Below are positions 9,044 through 13,802 of a stretch of DNA of 64,000 nt, in pieces. How positions within the stretch are numbered: position 1 is the stretch's first letter; the number at the start of each line of letters is the position of its first letter. Position numbers and translations under genes: made by a program. Source of the DNA: Candidatus Gastranaerophilales bacterium (lineage in GTDB: Bacteria; Cyanobacteriota; Vampirovibrionia; Gastranaerophilales; JANQFW01). The notes under the pieces are model-generated. The model saw only the letters and a list, made by a program, of their open reading frames with translations. It was not told where the DNA came from and ran no database searches. The stretch is from NCBI GenBank assembly GCA_028280605.1, contig JANQLL010000164.1:99-64098 (forward strand), in the 5' to 3' direction.

Positions 9044-9937
9044 GTGAGCGTAACATTTCAGCAATTAATTCATAGATTAAACGAATATTGGTCAGATTAC
9101 GGCTGTATAATCCAGCAACCATATGACATAGAAAAAGGCGCAAGCACCATGAATCCAGCAACTTTTTTAAGAGTGCTTGGTCCTGAACCATGGAATACTG
9201 CAATGGTTGAACCCTGCCGTAGGCCTACAGATGGCAGATACGGCGAAAATCCTAATAGATTGCAGCATTATTTTCAATATCAGGTTATATTAAAACCATC
9301 ACCTGAAGATGCTCAAGATGTTTATTTAAAAAGTCTTGAAGCTATAGGTATTGATTTAAGTGCACATGATATTAGATTTGTAGAGGATAATTGGGAGTCT
9401 CCTACATTAGGAGCCTGGGGTGTAGGCTGGGAATTTTGGCTTGATGGTATGGAAGTTACGCAGTTTACTTATTTTCAACAAGCGGGCGGTATTGATGTAA
9501 AACCTGTTGCTCTTGAGTTGACCTATGGATTAGAGCGTATAGCCATGTATCTTCAAAATTTAGACAGTGTTTACGATGTCCAGTGGAATGAAAACTTAAA
9601 ATACGGCGATATTTATCTGCAAAACGAAATCCAGCAATCTAAATATAACTTTGAGGTTTCTACAGCTGAAAGCTTATCTAAAGCATTTGACTTGTACAGT
9701 AAAGAAGTTGATACTGCGATTGATGCAGAATTACCACTTCCGGCTTATGACTGTGTTCTAAAATGTTCACATACCTTCAACCTTCTTGATGCAAGAGGTG
9801 TTATAAGCAAAGATGAACGTACAAATTTTATCAACAGAATAAGACGAATGGCAGAAAAAGTAGCTAAAATGTATGTTCAGCAAAGAGAAGAAATGGGGTA
9901 CCCGCTTCTTAAGAAAAACAATAAAGTTGGAGTTTAA
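9044..9937 (+). CDS. glyQ: Glycine-tRNA ligase alpha subunit
   Basis: 297 aa with a GTG start. FQQLI..YW...GC...QPYD..(K)GA(S)T..P.TFLR and the rest of the protein match GlyQ closely. Confidence 0.93.
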
Positions 9938-10043: not shown

Positions 10044-13000
10044 GTGCTTTTCAATAAAAAAATATTATTAAATCATTTAAATAAATTTGAATATCCTGAA
10101 CAATTTGAATTCAAAAGAATAAATAAGATTATTTTTAATTGGCAGACGGCTATAAAAGATGGTAAATATGAAAAAACAAAAGAAATTCGAGTTCAAGCAA
10201 CATTTTTAACACGTTTTTTTAATGATATTTTAGGCTATGCAGAGATGCATGATTGTCCTGATGAGTGGTATTTGATAAACGAAGCTAAAACTGAAGTTGA
10301 TTCAACAAAGGCCGATGGGGCTTTAGGATTTTTTTCTGAAGATGAAAAAGGTAATGTTATAAGAGCAGTTATAGAGCTAAAAGACGCTAAAACTCCTTTG
10401 GATAAAAAACAGTCTTCAAGAAAAGATTATGATTCGCCTGTAAGTCAGGCTTTTAGCTATTCATCAAAATTTGACCGTTGCGATTGGATAGTAGTTTCAA
10501 ACTTCAGGGAAATAAGACTTTATCATAAAGATAGAGGTCAAGGTTATTATGAAAAATTCTTGATAGAAGAATTTAATGTAAAAGAAGATATTAATGAATC
10601 TGATTTATTTAAAGATGAAAAGTTTAAAAGATTTTACTTTCTTTTATGTAAACAAAATTTGCTGGATAAAGACAGAAACTCTTTGCTGGATAAGCTTGTT
10701 AAAGATACTTCAAAGCAAGAAGACGAAATATCCAAGAGCTTTTATAAAGAGTTTAAAGCTGTTAGACAAAGCCTGTTTAATCATCTGGCTGAAAACAATC
10801 CTGAAGTAGAAAAAAAATGCTTGCTGGAAAAAACTCAAAAGCTGTTGGACAGAATGATATTTGTATTTTTCTGTGAGGATTCATATGGTTTATTACCTTC
10901 TAAAATAACAAATGAAGTTTACCGGCTCGGCATAAAATCAAGAGAAAGAAGTGACCAAAGAGTATGGAGGGAGTTTAAAAATCTTTTTCAGGATATAAAT
11001 GAGGGAAGATATGATATAGATCCGCCAATAAACGCTTATAATGGAGGTTTATTTGCTGAAGATAAAGTATTAAATAATTTGATTATTAAAGATGATATTT
11101 GGGAAGAAATAGTTAAGCTTGCCAATTATGATTTTGAGAGTGATTTGAATGTTAATATTTTAGGTCATATTTTTGAACAATCTTTAAGTGATTTAGAAAA
11201 ATTAAAAAATGAACTTGATGGAATAGAGAGTAATAATAAAAAATCCAAACGTAAAAAAGACGGGATTTATTATACTCCTGAGTATATCACTCGTTATATA
11301 GTAGAACAAACTTTAGGTAAATACCTTGAGGAAAATCCGAATAGGCTGGAGTCTGTAAAAATACTTGACCCTGCTTGTGGTAGCGGCGCATTTTTAAATC
11401 AGGCTCATAGTTTTTTGCAGGAACAGCATAGAGTAAGATGGGAAGAAAAACTTGCTGAAAATTATAAAGATTCAAGAAATTTAAATATTTTTGAACATCA
11501 AAACCTTGCAGAGGTTGATAAGTCAATATTATTAAATAATATTTTTGGTGTTGATTTAAATGAAGAATCAACAGAAATTACAAAACTTGCTTTATGGTTA
11601 AAGACTGCAAAAAAAACAGAGCCATTGCAAAACCTCGATAATAATATCAAATGCGGAAATTCTCTTATTGATGATCCTGATGTGGCCGGAGAAAAAGCTT
11701 TTAACTGGCAAAATGAATTTGAAGGTATATTTGAAAAGCAAAAACTAAAAGCTTTTCATTTAACATGGGCAACTCATAATTCAAGGTATTCTGAAAAATT
11801 AGGCAAATTAAATATAAAGACAGATGAAGCTATTTGGCTTGATGAAAAATCTGAAAGTATAATCACGAATACTATTGATAGAATTGTTAGAGAAGATAGC
11901 TTAAAAGTGTTGGCTTACAATATTTGTGGAGATCATATTCATCTTATAATTGTTTGTTGTGAAAATGAACTAGAGTCCATTGTAAGAAAATTCAAATCAA
12001 TATCATCAAGAGAGCACAATATAAAAATGGGTTGGACAGTACCTGATGAAGAAAATAAAAAAAGAAGAGCTGAAAATAAAAAGGGAATTACTCAAAACAA
12101 GCTTTGGGCCAAAAGTTATAATGCCTCTATTCTTGAATCTAGTGAGTATATTGTAAATGCAATAAATTATGTAGAAAAAAACAGAAAAAAGCATGGTCTT
12201 ACGGATTTGGAGTATTGTAAAAATCCTTGTGAATATAATAAAGAAAATCCTTATAAGCAGAGGGTCATGACCCTCTGCTCTATTGAAAAAGCATTTGAGG
12301 ATAAGTATGAAGGCGGTTTTGATGTTATTATAGGTAACCCGCCTTATGTAAGACAGGAGTTTTTCTCTGAAATAAAGCCTTTTCTTGAAAAAAATTATGA
12401 AGTTTATACCGGTGTATCTGACTTATATGTTTATTTCTTTGAAAAAGGGTTAAACTTATTAAAAGAAGGCGGTTACTTTGCTTTTATAGTTTCAAATAAA
12501 TTCTTAAAAGCCGGTTATGGCAAAAAATTAACCCAATATTTACAAAAAAATTATAAAATAGTTGAAATGATTGACTTTGGAGATTTACAAATTTTTGAAG
12601 GGGCTATAACATATCCTTGTATAATAACCATTAAAAAAGAAAAGCCTGAAGAAAAACAAAGTTGTACTTGTTTAAAGCTAAAAAATCTTGATAATGTGAC
12701 TGATTTGAAAATTGAAGTTAACAGTAAAGGCTTTGAGTTAATTATTGCTAATGATGATGAAACTTGGGCTTCTAGTAGCAAACAAAATTTTGATATTTTA
12801 GAAAAATTAAAGAAAAATAATATTCCTTTGGGAAAATATATAAACGATTCTATTTATTATGGAATTAAAACAGGATTTAATGAAGCATTTATTATTAATA
12901 CGGAAACTAAAGAAAAACTTTGCAAGAAAGGTTTTGAAGGGGTAGAGATTATTAAACCTCTTATAAAAGGTTGTAATATTTTGCCTTATAATTTTGATTA

Positions 13001-13802
13001 TCAAAATCTATGGATTATATTTACCCGTAGAGGAATAAATATTGATAAATATCCTGCAATTAAAGAATACTTAAGTTTATTTAAAGAAAAATTAGAGCCT
13101 AAACCTAAAGACTTTAAAGGTGAATGGAAAGGTCGAAAAACAGGTTCTTATGAATGGTATGAAATTCAAGATAATATTGCATACTATGAAAATTTTGCCA
13201 AACCGAAAATCATTTGGGGGAATTTAGCTAAAAAAGCATCTTTTGCATATGATGATAAAAATTTATATATTAATGCTCCAGCTTGCATAATTCCTACAAA
13301 TGAAAAATGGCTTTTATCATTATTAAATTCTAAAATTTCAACATACTTTCTTAAAAATACGGCTATAGAACGACAAGGAGGCTTTATTGAACAAAAACCT
13401 GTTTATGTAAAACAGATACCTATTCCTAATGCAAATAAAGAACAACAAAAAAGCCTTGCCCAAAAAGCCAACCAAATGATGGAGCTAAATAAAAATCTAA
13501 ATGAATCATCAAAACATGCTCTTAACTTTATTGAAACCAAGTATCAGCCTAAAAAAATACCTCAAAAACTCCAAAAATTTTGGCAAATAGGGGCAAATCC
13601 ATTTATTGATGAGTTAAAAAAGCAAAAAGTAAATCTGACTCTTAAGGAGGAAGAAGAGCTTATCCAATGGTATAAAGAAAAACAAATGCTTTTAAATGAC
13701 CTGGAAAATCAAATAAATCAATTAGATAAAAATATAGACCTAGAAGTTTACAAACTCTATGACCTAAGCGATGAAGAAGTAAAAATTATTGAGGAAGCGT
13801 AA
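10044..13802 (+). CDS. Type IIG (MmeI/Eco57I-like) restriction endonuclease-methyltransferase fusion carrying an internal HUH/Y1 domain
   Basis: 1252 aa. N-terminal PD-ExK-like ADGALGF..VIELKDAK. AdoMet motif I DPACGSGAFL (nt 11367). CGNSLI, motif IV GGFDVIIGNPPY (NPPY at nt 12336-12347). C-terminal target-recognition-like region. Confidence 0.8.
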   Translation: MLFNKKILLNHLNKFEYPEQFEFKRINKIIFNWQTAIKDGKYEKTKEIRVQATFLTRFFNDILGYAEMHDCPDEWYLINEAKTEVDSTKADGALGFFSEDEKGNVIRAVIELKDAKTPLDKKQSSRKDYDSPVSQAFSYSSKFDRCDWIVVSNFREIRLYHKDRGQGYYEKFLIEEFNVKEDINESDLFKDEKFKRFYFLLCKQNLLDKDRNSLLDKLVKDTSKQEDEISKSFYKEFKAVRQSLFNHLAENNPEVEKKCLLEKTQKLLDRMIFVFFCEDSYGLLPSKITNEVYRLGIKSRERSDQRVWREFKNLFQDINEGRYDIDPPINAYNGGLFAEDKVLNNLIIKDDIWEEIVKLANYDFESDLNVNILGHIFEQSLSDLEKLKNELDGIESNNKKSKRKKDGIYYTPEYITRYIVEQTLGKYLEENPNRLESVKILDPACGSGAFLNQAHSFLQEQHRVRWEEKLAENYKDSRNLNIFEHQNLAEVDKSILLNNIFGVDLNEESTEITKLALWLKTAKKTEPLQNLDNNIKCGNSLIDDPDVAGEKAFNWQNEFEGIFEKQKLKAFHLTWATHNSRYSEKLGKLNIKTDEAIWLDEKSESIITNTIDRIVREDSLKVLAYNICGDHIHLIIVCCENELESIVRKFKSISSREHNIKMGWTVPDEENKKRRAENKKGITQNKLWAKSYNASILESSEYIVNAINYVEKNRKKHGLTDLEYCKNPCEYNKENPYKQRVMTLCSIEKAFEDKYEGGFDVIIGNPPYVRQEFFSEIKPFLEKNYEVYTGVSDLYVYFFEKGLNLLKEGGYFAFIVSNKFLKAGYGKKLTQYLQKNYKIVEMIDFGDLQIFEGAITYPCIITIKKEKPEEKQSCTCLKLKNLDNVTDLKIEVNSKGFELIIANDDETWASSSKQNFDILEKLKKNNIPLGKYINDSIYYGIKTGFNEAFIINTETKEKLCKKGFEGVEIIKPLIKGCNILPYNFDYQNLWIIFTRRGINIDKYPAIKEYLSLFKEKLEPKPKDFKGEWKGRKTGSYEWYEIQDNIAYYENFAKPKIIWGNLAKKASFAYDDKNLYINAPACIIPTNEKWLLSLLNSKISTYFLKNTAIERQGGFIEQKPVYVKQIPIPNANKEQQKSLAQKANQMMELNKNLNESSKHALNFIETKYQPKKIPQKLQKFWQIGANPFIDELKKQKVNLTLKEEEELIQWYKEKQMLLNDLENQINQLDKNIDLEVYKLYDLSDEEVKIIEEA
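11739..12302 (+). other. In-frame ~188-codon insert encoding a Y1 HUH (IS200/IS605 TnpA / RAYT-like) domain within the methyltransferase domain
   Basis: AFHLTWATHNSR (beta1), NICGDHIHLIIV (HUH = HIH), IVRKFKSISSRE, KLWAKSYNASILES, NAINYVEKNRKKHGL (catalytic Tyr, Y-x3-N). No separate start codon or RBS. Confidence 0.7.
12257..12278. repeat. 22-bp perfect palindrome GCAGAGGGTCATGACCCTCTGC (REP/IS200-end-like hairpin) inside the coding sequence
   Basis: Checked by hand to be its own reverse complement. GC-rich relative to its surroundings. Lies just 3' of the Y1 domain near the right edge of the insert. Confidence 0.85.

What the first reader, a model, noticed from the sequence alone, without database searches (positions are those of the whole stretch)
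11739..12302. HUH/Y1 (IS200-RAYT-like) nuclease domain nested in-frame inside the methyltransferase domain of a type IIG restriction-modification enzyme
The 1252-aa ORF has the usual MmeI/Eco57I-type order:
- an N-terminal D...ELK nuclease motif
- AdoMet motif I, DPACGSGAFL, at nt 11367
- CGNSLI
- motif IV, NPPY, at nt 12336
- a C-terminal specificity region

Motif I and NPPY are about 323 aa apart. About 188 codons sit between ..FNWQNEFEGIFEK and ..KYEGGFDVIIGNPPY, two segments that in my knowledge of this family are almost contiguous.

The intercalated piece carries the full Y1-transposase signature:
- AFHLTWATHNSR
- LAYNICGDHIHLIIV (HUH = H-I-H)
- IVRKFKSISSRE
- KLWAKSYNASILES
- NAINYVEKNRKKHGL (Tyr, Y-x3-N, as in REP-associated tyrosine transposases)

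The piece has no start codon or RBS of its own, and it keeps the host frame on both sides (564 nt). It can therefore only be made as part of the RM polypeptide.

I see two readings. It may be a domesticated ssDNA-cleaving, covalently attaching module recruited into a defence enzyme, which is an architecture I do not know to be described. Or it may be an in-frame mobile insertion that has split the MTase without creating a stop.
Basis: partly seen in the sequence, partly recalled or inferred. Interest (0 to 1): 0.8.

Follow-up and report, generated by a model that had tools for sequence, protein, structure and literature searches.

The report
RAYT nuclease nested in restriction enzyme
A complete hairpin-cutting "domesticated transposase" (RAYT-type HUH nuclease), along with one of its characteristic DNA hairpins, sits in-frame in a surface loop of a combined restriction-methylation enzyme; this arrangement recurs across many bacterial phyla, stays under strong selection, and does not appear in the papers I searched.

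Summary
Window 10044-13802 (+) encodes a 1252-aa MmeI-family type IIG enzyme. Codons 566-753 (nt 11739-12302) are a Y1 HUH domain, scoring above Pfam's cut-off, looped out between methyltransferase motifs III and IV.

The domain is not IS200-like. It matches the RAYT/TnpA_REP class in its Y-x3-N-x3-H metal ligands. It spans the full length of stand-alone relatives, and it carries a perfect 24-nt GC-rich palindrome in-frame (12256-12279).

The architecture recurs in at least 63 protein clusters (no more than 50% identical to each other) from several phyla, always at the same loop. All catalytic residues are kept, and dN/dS is 0.06-0.07. Close orthologues lack the insert. A few relatives carry a PIN domain in the same loop. 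Structure models show the methyltransferase closing around a flexibly tethered Y1 fold.

Related palindromes are REP-like elements dispersed through metagenomes, often in-frame in unrelated genes. In-frame REPs inside stand-alone RAYT genes are already published (Quentin 2018, subclass 2.4). The nesting inside a restriction enzyme was not found in the searched literature.

Best reading: a working RAYT/REP module riding as a passenger domain. Co-option for defence is not excluded. Verdict: new variant of a known kind; interest 0.6.

The parts
10044..13802 (+). Complete ORF of a single-chain type IIG (MmeI-family) restriction-modification enzyme, 1252 aa
   Evidence: ORF. (Pfam MmeI_N, MmeI_hel, N6_Mtase/MmeI_Mtase, Eco57I, TaqI_C). 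(Foldseek matches to CamA, BrxX/PglX, MmeI 5HR4, BpuSI, DrdV).
10155..10673 (+). N-terminal PD-(D/E)xK-type endonuclease domain (MmeI_N, aa 38-210), with D91...E111-L-K113
   Evidence: 27.6 bits, cut-off 27. D91, E111 and K113 are invariant in alignment A1.
11367..11396 (+). AdoMet-binding motif I, DPACGSGAFL
   Evidence: Invariant or nearly invariant in A1 and A3.
11652..11669 (+). MTase motif III (CGNSLI), the last conserved strand before the insert
   Evidence: In 63 embedded representatives the HUH domain starts a median of 27 aa after this motif.
11739..12302 (+). Nested RAYT/TnpA_REP-class Y1 HUH nuclease (aa 566-753), corresponding to a whole stand-alone protein minus its first 2-3 residues
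   Evidence: Y1_Tnp 37.5 bits; REP_Tyr_transpos is the best NCBIfam match at 49.6 bits. (stand-alone P0270 aligns end to end). (all top 29 PDB fold matches are Y1 transposases, including 4ER8).
11934..11942 (+). HUH motif H631-I-H633
   Evidence: Both histidines are kept in 63 of 63 embedded representatives.
12168..12194 (+). Catalytic helix YVEKNRKKH: Tyr709 with metal ligands N713 and H717 (Y-x3-N-x3-H)
   Evidence: Y, N and H are each kept in 58 of 58 embedded copies. The pattern is the same as Y115/N119/H123 of E. coli TnpA_REP (PMC3479197).
12256..12279 (.). Perfect 24-nt GC-rich palindrome AGCAGAGGGTCA|TGACCCTCTGCT, read in-frame as KQRVMTLCS: a REP-type hairpin in the tail of the insert
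   Evidence: unique in the window; 0 expected by chance. (DNA hairpin -11 kcal/mol, z = -4.2). (12 of 12 embedded inserts with DNA carry such a palindrome).
12210..12254 (+). Disordered linker between the HUH domain and the hairpin/tail (about aa 723-737)
   Evidence: pLDDT below 50 for 723-737. The length of this region varies from 29 to 131 aa among homologues.
12336..12347 (+). MTase catalytic motif IV, NPPY
   Evidence: Invariant in A1.
12954..13424 (+). TaqI_C-type target-recognition domain (aa 971-1127)
   Evidence: 68.4 bits, cut-off 26.5.

Best explanation
**What it is (shown).** A complete REP-associated tyrosine transposase (RAYT/TnpA_REP-class Y1 HUH nuclease), together with a REP-type DNA hairpin, is nested in-frame in the surface loop between methyltransferase motifs III and IV of an MmeI-family type IIG restriction-modification enzyme.

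- The RM scaffold is intact: nuclease D...ELK, motifs I and IV, and the TRD are all present. It is predicted to fold around the insert.
- The HUH module forms an independent Y1 fold held on disordered linkers.
- Its full catalytic set (H631, H633, Y709, N713, H717) is kept, and it is under strong purifying selection.

**How it works (inferred).** The module does what RAYTs do. It binds a G-C-footed DNA hairpin in single-stranded DNA, cleaves next to it through a 5'-phosphotyrosine intermediate, and can rejoin the strand.

- It is made only as a passenger domain of the RM polypeptide. The RM gene supplies its expression and its horizontal spread.
- The RM enzyme can do without it, since most close orthologues lack it.
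- The insert moves between host alleles mainly by the homologous recombination that is rampant in this gene family, not by its own transposition.

**Confidence.** About 0.9 for the identity of the parts. The 0.55 given is for the passenger-RAYT mechanism.
For: **Identity**
- Pfam Y1_Tnp scores above its cut-off, and the best NCBIfam match is REP_Tyr_transpos.
- All top 29 PDB fold matches are Y1 transposases, including TnpA_REP 4ER8.
- The Y-x3-N-x3-H ligands match those of TnpA_REP, which is a monomer.
- The insert aligns end to end with the genuine stand-alone gene P0270.

**Function retained**
- HUH is kept in 63 of 63 embedded representatives, and Tyr, N and H in 58 of 58.
- dN/dS is 0.06-0.07 for the insert against 0.12-0.16 for the host N-half.
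- P0256 and P0269 keep an intact HUH inside degenerate MTase motifs.

**REP link**
- 12 of 12 embedded inserts with DNA carry a perfect palindrome with a stem of 10 or more.
- The commonest palindrome is dispersed in at least 120 metagenome stretches. 82 of 88 copies are in loci without the HUH domain, and 45 of the 88 are inside unrelated stop-free frames of at least 100 aa.
- REP-type peptides occur in the host parts of 12 of 32 HUH-bearing enzymes and 0 of 109 insert-less ones.
- Stand-alone relatives carry palindromes of the same design within them, and in L135 and L076 also just upstream.
- Quentin 2018 describes exactly this in-frame REP habit for subclass 2.4.

**Passenger status**
- Linkers are disordered and variable.
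- The MTase superposes on CamA across both halves.
- Close orthologues lack the insert: P0002 vs P0010 are 96% identical in the N-half and syntenic.
- Insert and host trees disagree.
- Module swapping is common in insert-less relatives too.
Against: - No biochemical activity was tested.
- In the window itself, the hairpin core has no second copy in 64 kb. This genome shows no REP population for the domain to act on.
- The NCBIfam RAYT model's curated cut-off is not reached (49.6 vs 80 bits).
- Among the top 150 representatives, every domain found inside a larger protein sits in the same loop of one enzyme class, across two N-terminal nuclease types. A PIN nuclease occupies the same loop in other relatives. 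Both facts sit uneasily with a purely accidental passenger and hint at a functional link with the RM enzyme.
- The association is confounded by genome background, and I designed the patterns after seeing some of the positives.
Confidence: 0.55

Rival explanations
1. Co-opted defence module. The HUH domain (and the PIN domain in other relatives) is an accessory nuclease plugged into a standard socket of the type IIG enzyme. It adds a second activity directed at single-stranded or hairpin DNA. Examples would be nicking or covalently capturing ssDNA of conjugating plasmids or ssDNA phages, or holding the enzyme at replication forks, where a one-strand-modifying MmeI-type enzyme must act quickly.
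For: - The same loop is always used, in two different type IIG architectures, MmeI_N and HSDR_N.
- A PIN domain (PF01850, 26.3 bits) sits in the same loop in P0106, and a PIN-like insert in P0111.
- Catalytic residues are strictly kept and dN/dS is very low.
- Embedded forms are about as numerous as stand-alone ones among the top 150 representatives (63 vs about 67).
Against: - Most close orthologues work without the insert (107 of 118 have the short loop).
- Linkers are disordered and tolerate REP insertions and tandem-repeat expansions, so the coupling is loose.
- HUH stays intact where the MTase motifs have decayed (P0256, P0269).
- The window's gene sits among housekeeping genes, not in a defence island.
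- Selection on the domain is equally explained by an autonomous RAYT function.
Confidence: 0.25
2. Self-mobilising in-frame element. The HUH coding segment plus its hairpin is itself a mobile cassette that inserts, through its own HUH chemistry, into the DNA encoding this conserved loop. This would be a splicing-free analogue of a homing element.
For: - Presence is patchy among near-identical hosts (P0010 vs P0002, N-half 96%).
- P0010's insert is 83% identical to P0004's, although their host N-halves are only 69% identical. The insert's synonymous divergence is also lower than the host's.
- Embedded and stand-alone forms are interleaved on the domain tree, with 24 state changes.
- A hairpin lies near the 3' end, as in the right end of IS200/IS605 elements.
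Against: - No hairpin is conserved at the 5' junction, and no nucleotide motif is conserved at either junction beyond what the coding sequence requires.
- The filled and empty sites (L001 vs L002) do not differ by a clean insertion, and the region after NPPY is also replaced.
- There is only one copy per locus.
- No insertion was found in any other protein class.
- Recombination at these conserved motifs is frequent without any insert and is enough to explain the pattern.
- The tree is a weakly resolved NJ tree on 154 columns.
Confidence: 0.1
3. Inert relic. An old insertion that merely persists as a tolerated linker, with no activity.
For: - The RM enzyme does not need it.
- The window has no other copy of the hairpin.
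Against: - All catalytic residues are kept in 58-63 diverged representatives.
- dN/dS is 0.06-0.07, lower than for the host.
- The fold prediction is confident.
Confidence: 0.03

Closest known systems
RAYT / TnpA_REP, especially TnpA_Y1 subclass 2.4 of Quentin et al. 2018 (PMC6006769); structure 4ER8 (PMC3479197)
   Same: - Y1 HUH fold, a single catalytic Tyr, and the Y-x3-N-x3-H metal ligands.
- Association with GC-rich palindromes whose stem foot is three G-C pairs.
- REPs inserted in-frame inside the gene itself, between HuH and Y or in the tail.
- A long, variable HuH-Y spacing (76 aa here).
- Occurrence in Bacteroidota and the cyanobacterial lineage.
- The family prototype is a monomer.
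   Different: - Here the whole protein has no start or stop codon of its own and is nested inside another enzyme's catalytic domain.
- No GTAG-type tag is seen next to the hairpin.
- The NCBIfam RAYT cut-off is not reached (49.6 vs 80 bits).
- No dispersed REP family is visible in the 64-kb window.
- Assignment to subclass 2.4 rests on shared features, not on the authors' profiles.
MmeI-family type IIG/IIL restriction-modification enzymes (MmeI 5HR4; relatives BpuSI, DrdV, and the BREX PglX/BrxX methyltransferase)
   Same: - Domain order: N-terminal PD-(D/E)xK nuclease, helical spacer, gamma-class N6-adenine MTase, TaqI_C-type TRD, all in a single polypeptide.
- Frequent exchange of the specificity half between alleles.
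   Different: The loop between motifs III and IV is 221 aa here and holds a second, unrelated nuclease fold. It is about 30 aa in ordinary members.
IS200/IS605 TnpA (IS608, ISDra2)
   Same: Closest solved folds by Foldseek E-value. Same HUH/Tyr chemistry on hairpin-bearing ssDNA.
   Different: - Y-x3-N rather than Y-x3-Q.
- No left-end and right-end hairpin pair, and no tnpB.
- Not multicopy.
- The IS200 NCBIfam cut-off is not met (32.5 vs 55 bits).
- IS200/IS605 transposases are obligate dimers with trans active sites.
In-frame palindromic elements in coding genes (Rickettsia RPEs; intragenic REPs of Di Nocera et al. 2013, PMC3733652)
   Same: Short palindromes are inserted in-frame into surface loops of functional proteins. 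That holds here both in the insert and in other loops of homologous RM enzymes.
   Different: Those are short non-coding-type repeats. Here the nested unit also includes the 185-aa nuclease thought to act on such repeats.
Inteins and other nested homing elements
   Same: A nuclease-encoding segment nested in-frame in a conserved site of a host enzyme, with patchy distribution among orthologues.
   Different: No Hint or splicing domain was detected. The insert stays in the mature protein, and the nuclease is of the HUH type, not LAGLIDADG or HNH.

Membership tests
Y1 HUH transposase superfamily (Pfam PF01797) | Profile match above the curated cut-off | tested here: met
   37.5 bits alone and 32.8 bits in context, against a cut-off of 23.
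Y1 HUH transposase superfamily (Pfam PF01797) | HUH motif on a beta-strand and a single catalytic Tyr on the following helix | tested here: met
   H631-I-H633 lies in strand 631-638 and Y709 in helix 700-716 of the model. Both are invariant in homologues.
Y1 HUH transposase superfamily (Pfam PF01797) | Y1 transposase fold | tested here: met
   The top 29 Foldseek PDB matches are all Y1 transposases, with TM-scores of 0.5-0.64 normalised to the target.
RAYT / TnpA_REP | Metal ligands Y-x3-N-x3-H on helix alphaD (E. coli Y115/N119/H123) | tested here: met
   Y709, N713 and H717; kept in 58 of 58 embedded copies.
RAYT / TnpA_REP | NCBIfam REP_Tyr_transpos equivalog cut-off (80 bits) | tested here: not met
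   49.6 bits. It is the best NCBIfam match but falls below the cut-off.
RAYT / TnpA_REP | Gene flanked by or containing cognate REP hairpins (REPtron arrangement) | tested here: inconclusive
   One perfect REP-type palindrome lies inside the insert (12256-12279), and none lies in the flanks of the window. 12 of 12 embedded homologues with DNA carry at least one inside the insert. Stand-alone relatives have them within the gene, and in L135 and L076 also just upstream.
RAYT / TnpA_REP | A dispersed family of the same REP in the host genome | tested here: inconclusive
   There is no second copy in the 64-kb window, and the rest of the genome was not available. The related palindrome CAAGGGGTTGCAACCCCTTG is widely dispersed in metagenomes.
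RAYT / TnpA_REP | Cleavage and rejoining of REP ssDNA; monomeric enzyme | not testable with these tools
   Requires biochemistry.
IS200/IS605 TnpA | Y-x3-Q motif; NCBIfam transpos_IS200 cut-off (55 bits) | tested here: not met
   The motif is Y-x3-N, and the score is 32.5 bits. Quentin 2018 gives Y---Q as the signature of subclass 1.1.
IS200/IS605 TnpA | Element bounded by left- and right-end subterminal hairpins; multicopy; often with tnpB | tested here: not met
   No GC-rich hairpin lies at the 5' junction, there is a single copy in the window, and there is no tnpB neighbour.
MmeI-family type IIG RM enzyme | Single chain with N-terminal PD-(D/E)xK nuclease, gamma-class N6A MTase motifs I and IV, and a C-terminal TRD | tested here: met
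   MmeI_N 27.6 bits (cut-off 27), Eco57I 142.9, N6_Mtase 55.4, MmeI_Mtase 45.6, TaqI_C 68.4. D91, E111 and K113, DPACGSG and NPPY are conserved. Fold matches to MmeI, BpuSI and DrdV.
MmeI-family type IIG RM enzyme | Site-specific cleavage at a distance and one-strand methylation | not testable with these tools
   Requires enzyme assays or methylome data.
Intein / homing element | Hint splicing domain with conserved N- and C-terminal splice residues | tested here: not met
   No Hint or intein family appears in the Pfam scan of the protein or of the insert.

The most novel reading that the evidence does not exclude
The loop between methyltransferase motifs III and IV is a plug-in socket where type IIG enzymes acquire a second, interchangeable nuclease (HUH or PIN). 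The HUH version would give the restriction enzyme a covalent activity on ssDNA hairpins that is used in defence or in self-recognition. Examples would be capturing or nicking incoming single-stranded plasmid or phage DNA, or docking the one-strand-modifying enzyme at replication forks through REP hairpins.
Probability: 0.2. Interest if true: 0.85.

Novelty: new variant of a known kind. Interest (0 to 1): 0.6.

Why it matters
What RAYTs do, and how REP/REPIN elements are copied, have been open questions since RAYTs were first described. The E. coli enzyme is auto-inhibited and barely active in vitro.

A natural, widespread and strongly conserved form, in which a whole RAYT is expressed as a tethered domain of a restriction-methylation enzyme, offers three things:
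- A new experimental handle: a well-expressed fusion with a cognate hairpin encoded a few codons away.
- A possible functional link between DNA methylation or restriction and REP processing.
- An example of an entire enzyme nested inside another enzyme's catalytic domain without destroying it.

It also flags a permissive loop in MmeI-type enzymes, which are used in biotechnology, where large domains can be inserted.

If the domain proves to be only a passenger, the finding is still a clear case of a domesticated transposase using a horizontally mobile defence gene as its vehicle.

Tried and rejected
1. **HUH-driven exchange of the specificity cassette.** In L005 vs L008 the swapped MTase-C/TRD block lies between two REP hairpins. 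This is rejected as an HUH-specific effect. Insert-less relatives with 95-100% identical N-halves also very often carry unrelated C-halves.
2. **The palindrome as a private feature of this gene.** Rejected. The commonest variant is dispersed in at least 120 metagenome stretches, mostly far from any HUH domain.
3. **Compositional evidence for recent arrival.** None. The insert's GC content (0.28-0.32) matches the host gene's.
4. **A left-end hairpin or a conserved junction motif.** There are only weak AT-rich inverted repeats explainable by the EK..KAF codons, and nothing is conserved across loci.
5. **Single versus multiple capture.** An NJ tree on 154 columns gives 24 state changes against 41 at random. 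It is too weakly resolved to decide.
7. **The word-indexed search with the insert alone.** It found only 4 proteins.
8. **Viral contigs.** No relative found.
9. **Literature searches for the fused architecture**. No description found. Quentin 2018 explicitly discarded long 'gene fusions'.
10. **Inter-domain geometry.** I could not examine contacts between the HUH domain and the MTase, because model coordinates and PAE are not exposed.
Full report
**1.

Window 10044-13802 (+) is one intact ORF of 1252 aa. Pfam finds the MmeI-type order:

| Domain | Residues | Score |
|---|---|---|
| MmeI_N nuclease | 38-210 | 27.6 bits |
| MmeI helical spacer | 263-337 | 20.9 bits (below the 27-bit cut-off) |
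| N6_Mtase / MmeI_Mtase | 398-543 | 55.4 / 45.6 bits |
| Eco57I MTase | to 851 | 142.9 bits |
| TaqI_C recognition domain | 971-1127 | 68.4 bits |

Between the two MTase halves, Y1_Tnp (PF01797) matches residues 599-712. It scores 32.8 bits in context and 37.5 bits when the 188-codon segment 11739-12302 is scanned alone, against a curated cut-off of 23.

Sequence matches to CamA stop at residue 535 and resume at 751, which brackets the insert.

In 107 of 118 relatives the stretch from motif III to GNPPY is 29-37 aa. Here it is 221 aa.

**2. It is recurrent, not an artefact**

A whole-protein search returned eight proteins, the window's own included, with the same composite domain set. It also returned many close orthologues without the insert, for example P0002 (1058 aa; 78% identical to the window's protein in the N-half).

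An exhaustive search with the insert alone found 316 cluster representatives (214 at E ≤ 1e-10). Among the best 150 plus the eight, 63 carry type IIG MTase motifs around the domain.

In all 63, the domain lies in the same loop. It starts a median of 27 aa after motif III and ends a median of 32 aa (range 29-131) before GNPPY.

In a genome collection, every complete hit is a 1171-1291-aa type IIG reading frame with the domain at this position. The records are labelled Candidatus Gastranaerophilales (99% identical to the window's insert, so probably the window's source), Chitinophagaceae, Bacteroidota, Aquaticitalea, *Mariniflexile soesokkakense* KCTC 32427 (an isolate), 'Acetobacter sp.' rumen MAGs, Gracilibacteria and a gammaproteobacterial MAG.

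P0125 and P0134 carry the insert in the same loop of enzymes with a different N-terminal nuclease, HSDR_N.

**3. What kind of HUH domain it is**

- **Profiles.** NCBIfam ranks REP_Tyr_transpos first (49.6 bits, below its 80-bit cut-off) and IS200 second (32.5 bits).
- **Active site.** The invariant pattern is H-u-H ... Y-x3-N-R-x-K-H. In E. coli TnpA_REP the metal is held by H59, H61, N119 and H123 together with Y115 (PMC3479197). This is the same Y-x3-N-x3-H spacing as Y709, N713 and H717 here. IS200-type enzymes have Y-x3-Q (PMC6006769).
- **Oligomeric state.** TnpA_REP is a monomer, which fits nesting as a single domain.
- **Fold.** A model of the insert alone (pLDDT 76) has Y1 transposases as its 29 best PDB matches, including 4ER8.
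- **Extent.** Genuine stand-alone relatives exist. P0270 is a 183-aa gene between a GlyRS gene and an S1-domain gene. It aligns with the insert from its third residue to its last ('...SMICSYDEAFGE' against '...VMTLCSIEKAFEDKY'). What is nested is therefore a whole protein, not a fragment.

**4. The domain is maintained by selection**

Among embedded representatives no more than 50% identical to each other, both HUH histidines are kept in 63 of 63. The Tyr, the Asn at +4 and the His at +8 are kept in 58 of 58 copies that cover those columns.

Nei-Gojobori dN/dS for the insert is 0.06-0.07 in the four informative pairs. The host N-half gives 0.12-0.16 where it can be computed.

Two fragments (P0256, P0269) have degenerate MTase motifs around an intact HUH domain.

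**5. The host enzyme closes around it**

An AlphaFold2 model of residues 1-1200 has mean pLDDT 84 and pTM 0.70. It shows a β-α-β-β-α-β-α unit at 569-716, mostly at pLDDT 86-93 apart from a disordered loop around 673-681. A disordered stretch follows (723-737, pLDDT below 50), and then MTase strand β4 carrying NPPY.

The model superposes on CamA at a TM-score of about 0.7 (normalised to CamA), with about 200 more alignment columns than CamA's length. It also matches BrxX/PglX, MmeI, BpuSI and DrdV.

The nuclease residues D91, E111 and K113, motif I and NPPY are all conserved. I could not inspect inter-domain contacts.

**6. An unexpected DNA feature: an in-frame REP-type hairpin**

Nucleotides 12256-12279 are a perfect 24-nt palindrome, AGCAGAGGGTCA|TGACCCTCTGCT, in a gene of about 30% GC. 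It is read as KQRVMTLCS.

- It is unique in the window, with 0 matches expected by chance.
- As DNA it folds at -11 kcal/mol, z = -4.2.

All 12 embedded inserts for which I have DNA carry at least one perfect palindrome with a stem of 10 or more. It lies in the tail after the Tyr helix in nine and in the HUH-Tyr loop in four. Further copies lie in other loops of the same genes in L001, L007, L008, L011 and L014.

The palindromes share a G-C foot (CAAGGG[G]...[C]CCCTTG, or AGGGTCATGACCCT in the window's lineage). Between the window and L005/L008 the outer stem differs on both sides while staying perfectly paired.

The commonest variant, CAAGGGGTTGCAACCCCTTG, is a dispersed element:
- Of 88 copies in 80 loci, 82 are in loci with no HUH domain, and 45 lie inside stop-free reading frames of at least 100 aa with no similarity to the HUH or type IIG profiles.
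- The unit is a 26-28-nt palindrome with random flanks.

Stand-alone relatives carry palindromes of the same design within them, and in L135 and L076 also just upstream.

This matches what Quentin et al. describe for TnpA_Y1 subclass 2.4: abundant in Cyanobacteria and Bacteroidetes, REP stems with three G-C pairs at the foot, and, uniquely, REPs inserted in-frame within the tnpA_REP genes (PMC6006769). Intragenic in-frame REPs are also documented by Di Nocera et al. (PMC3733652).

REP-type peptides occur in the host parts of 12 of 32 HUH-bearing enzymes and 0 of 109 insert-less ones (Fisher p = 3e-9). Two caveats apply. I designed the patterns after seeing some of the positives, and the two sets come from different genome backgrounds.

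**7. How the insert is distributed**

L001 (P0010, with insert) and L002 (P0002, without) are syntenic and 94% identical at the DNA level up to the loop.

| Comparison | N-half identity | Insert identity |
|---|---|---|
| P0010 vs P0002 | 96% | P0002 has no insert |
| P0010 vs P0004 | 69% | 83% |
| Window vs P0010 | 78% | 43% |

In L001 vs L004 the insert's synonymous divergence is far below the host's (pS 0.39 vs 0.82). Inserts have therefore been exchanged among host alleles.

The filled and empty sites do not differ by a clean insertion, and no nucleotide motif is conserved at the junctions.

In L005 vs L008 the gene is 98.3% identical from its start through the insert and into motif IV (GNPPY). 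About 1.3 kb is then unrelated, the last 285 nt are 96% identical, and the flanking genome is only 77-79% identical.

Such module swapping is just as common among insert-less relatives (for example P0044 vs P0051: N-half 100%, C-half 46%). It is a property of the family, not of the insert.

An NJ tree interleaves embedded and stand-alone domains (24 changes against 41 at random), but it is weakly resolved.

**8. Other occupants of the loop**

- P0106 has a PIN domain there (PF01850, 26.3 bits against a cut-off of 23.6).
- P0111 has a weaker PIN-like insert.
- P0068 has a low-complexity insert.

The loop is a permissive hotspot.

**9. Context in the window**

The gene lies between glyQ and a cation-efflux gene, among housekeeping genes, with no mobile-element or defence neighbours. 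The insert's GC content matches the host gene's. No relatives were found on viral contigs.

**10. Interpretation**

*Shown:*
- A complete RAYT-class Y1 nuclease and a REP-type hairpin are nested in-frame in a permissive loop of an intact type IIG enzyme.
- The arrangement is widespread and under strong purifying selection.

*Inferred:*
- The domain retains RAYT-type chemistry on ssDNA hairpins and rides as a passenger. The RM gene supplies its expression and horizontal mobility (confidence about 0.55).
- Co-option as a second nuclease for defence is the main rival (0.25). Its support is the strict use of a single site, the two host types, and the PIN alternative.
- Self-mobilisation of the cassette (0.1) and an inert relic (0.03) are less likely.

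**11. Novelty**

Both parts, and the in-frame REP habit, are known. The nested architecture was not found in five literature searches. Quentin et al. discarded long 'gene fusions'. JGI's automated names do list both domains for P0005 and P0105. I rate it a new variant of a known kind, with interest 0.6.

Noticed in passing
P0106 and P0111 (homologues; alignment A1 columns about 691-1000): A PIN domain (PF01850, 26.3 bits; P0111 only weakly PIN_12) occupies exactly the same motif III-IV loop in other members of this type IIG family. P0068 has an 84-aa low-complexity loop there.
   Followed up: partly
Homologues, e.g. P0044/P0051, P0074/P0078/P0083; loci L005 vs L008: Alleles with 95-100% identical N-terminal halves carry unrelated halves after NPPY (39-47% identity). 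In L005 vs L008 the gene's N-half is 98% identical while the flanking genome is only 77-79%, which suggests recent transfer or gene conversion of the RM gene's modules.
   Followed up: partly
L015-L094 (metagenome loci), e.g. L034 58-77, 290-309, 2920-2939: The 26-28-nt palindrome (G)AACAAGGGGTTGCAACCCCTTGTT(C) is dispersed across many metagenome contigs and often lies inside long stop-free reading frames (three copies in one 1193-aa frame in L034). It looks like a REP family that lands in-frame in many unrelated genes.
   Followed up: partly
L002 4079-4136 and L001 8206-8263: The same 58-nt doublet of two palindromes lies upstream of the insert-less gene in L002, and in-frame inside the C-terminal coiled-coil region of the insert-bearing gene in L001 (93% identical). 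This is evidence that a REPIN-like doublet has moved.
   Followed up: partly
P0005 (1320 aa), linker after the HUH domain: There is a long tandem peptide repeat (SREPHSSRDSHI...) between the HUH domain and GGFD. L011 has a run of degenerate 'EPTVNKGLQ' units at the same place, so the linker tolerates large expansions.
   Followed up: no
P0256, P0269 (fragments, 599 and 511 aa): Type IIG-like scaffolds with degenerate motif I (DLCCDSG, DSVCGGG) and no NPPY still carry an intact HUH/Tyr domain in the loop.
   Followed up: no
Window 9044-9937 (glyQ) next to the RM gene; L135 154-1578 (GlyRS) next to the stand-alone HUH gene: In both the window and the stand-alone locus L135, the HUH-encoding gene lies immediately downstream of a glycyl-tRNA synthetase gene. 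In the window, glyQ is followed by the RM gene rather than by glyS. This may be coincidence.
   Followed up: no
Window 12310-12345: The DNA encoding GGFDVIIGNPPY contains an imperfect inverted repeat (AAGGCGGTTT / AACCCGCCTT; 10 nt, 90% complementary). It arises because Gly-Gly and Pro-Pro codons are complementary. It was not tested as a possible target structure.
   Followed up: no
L006 (Candidatus Gracilibacteria MAG) 1743-2345: The homologous reading frame appears broken when translated with table 11. This may reflect the alternative genetic code (UGA = Gly) that I recall for this lineage rather than a pseudogene.
   Followed up: no
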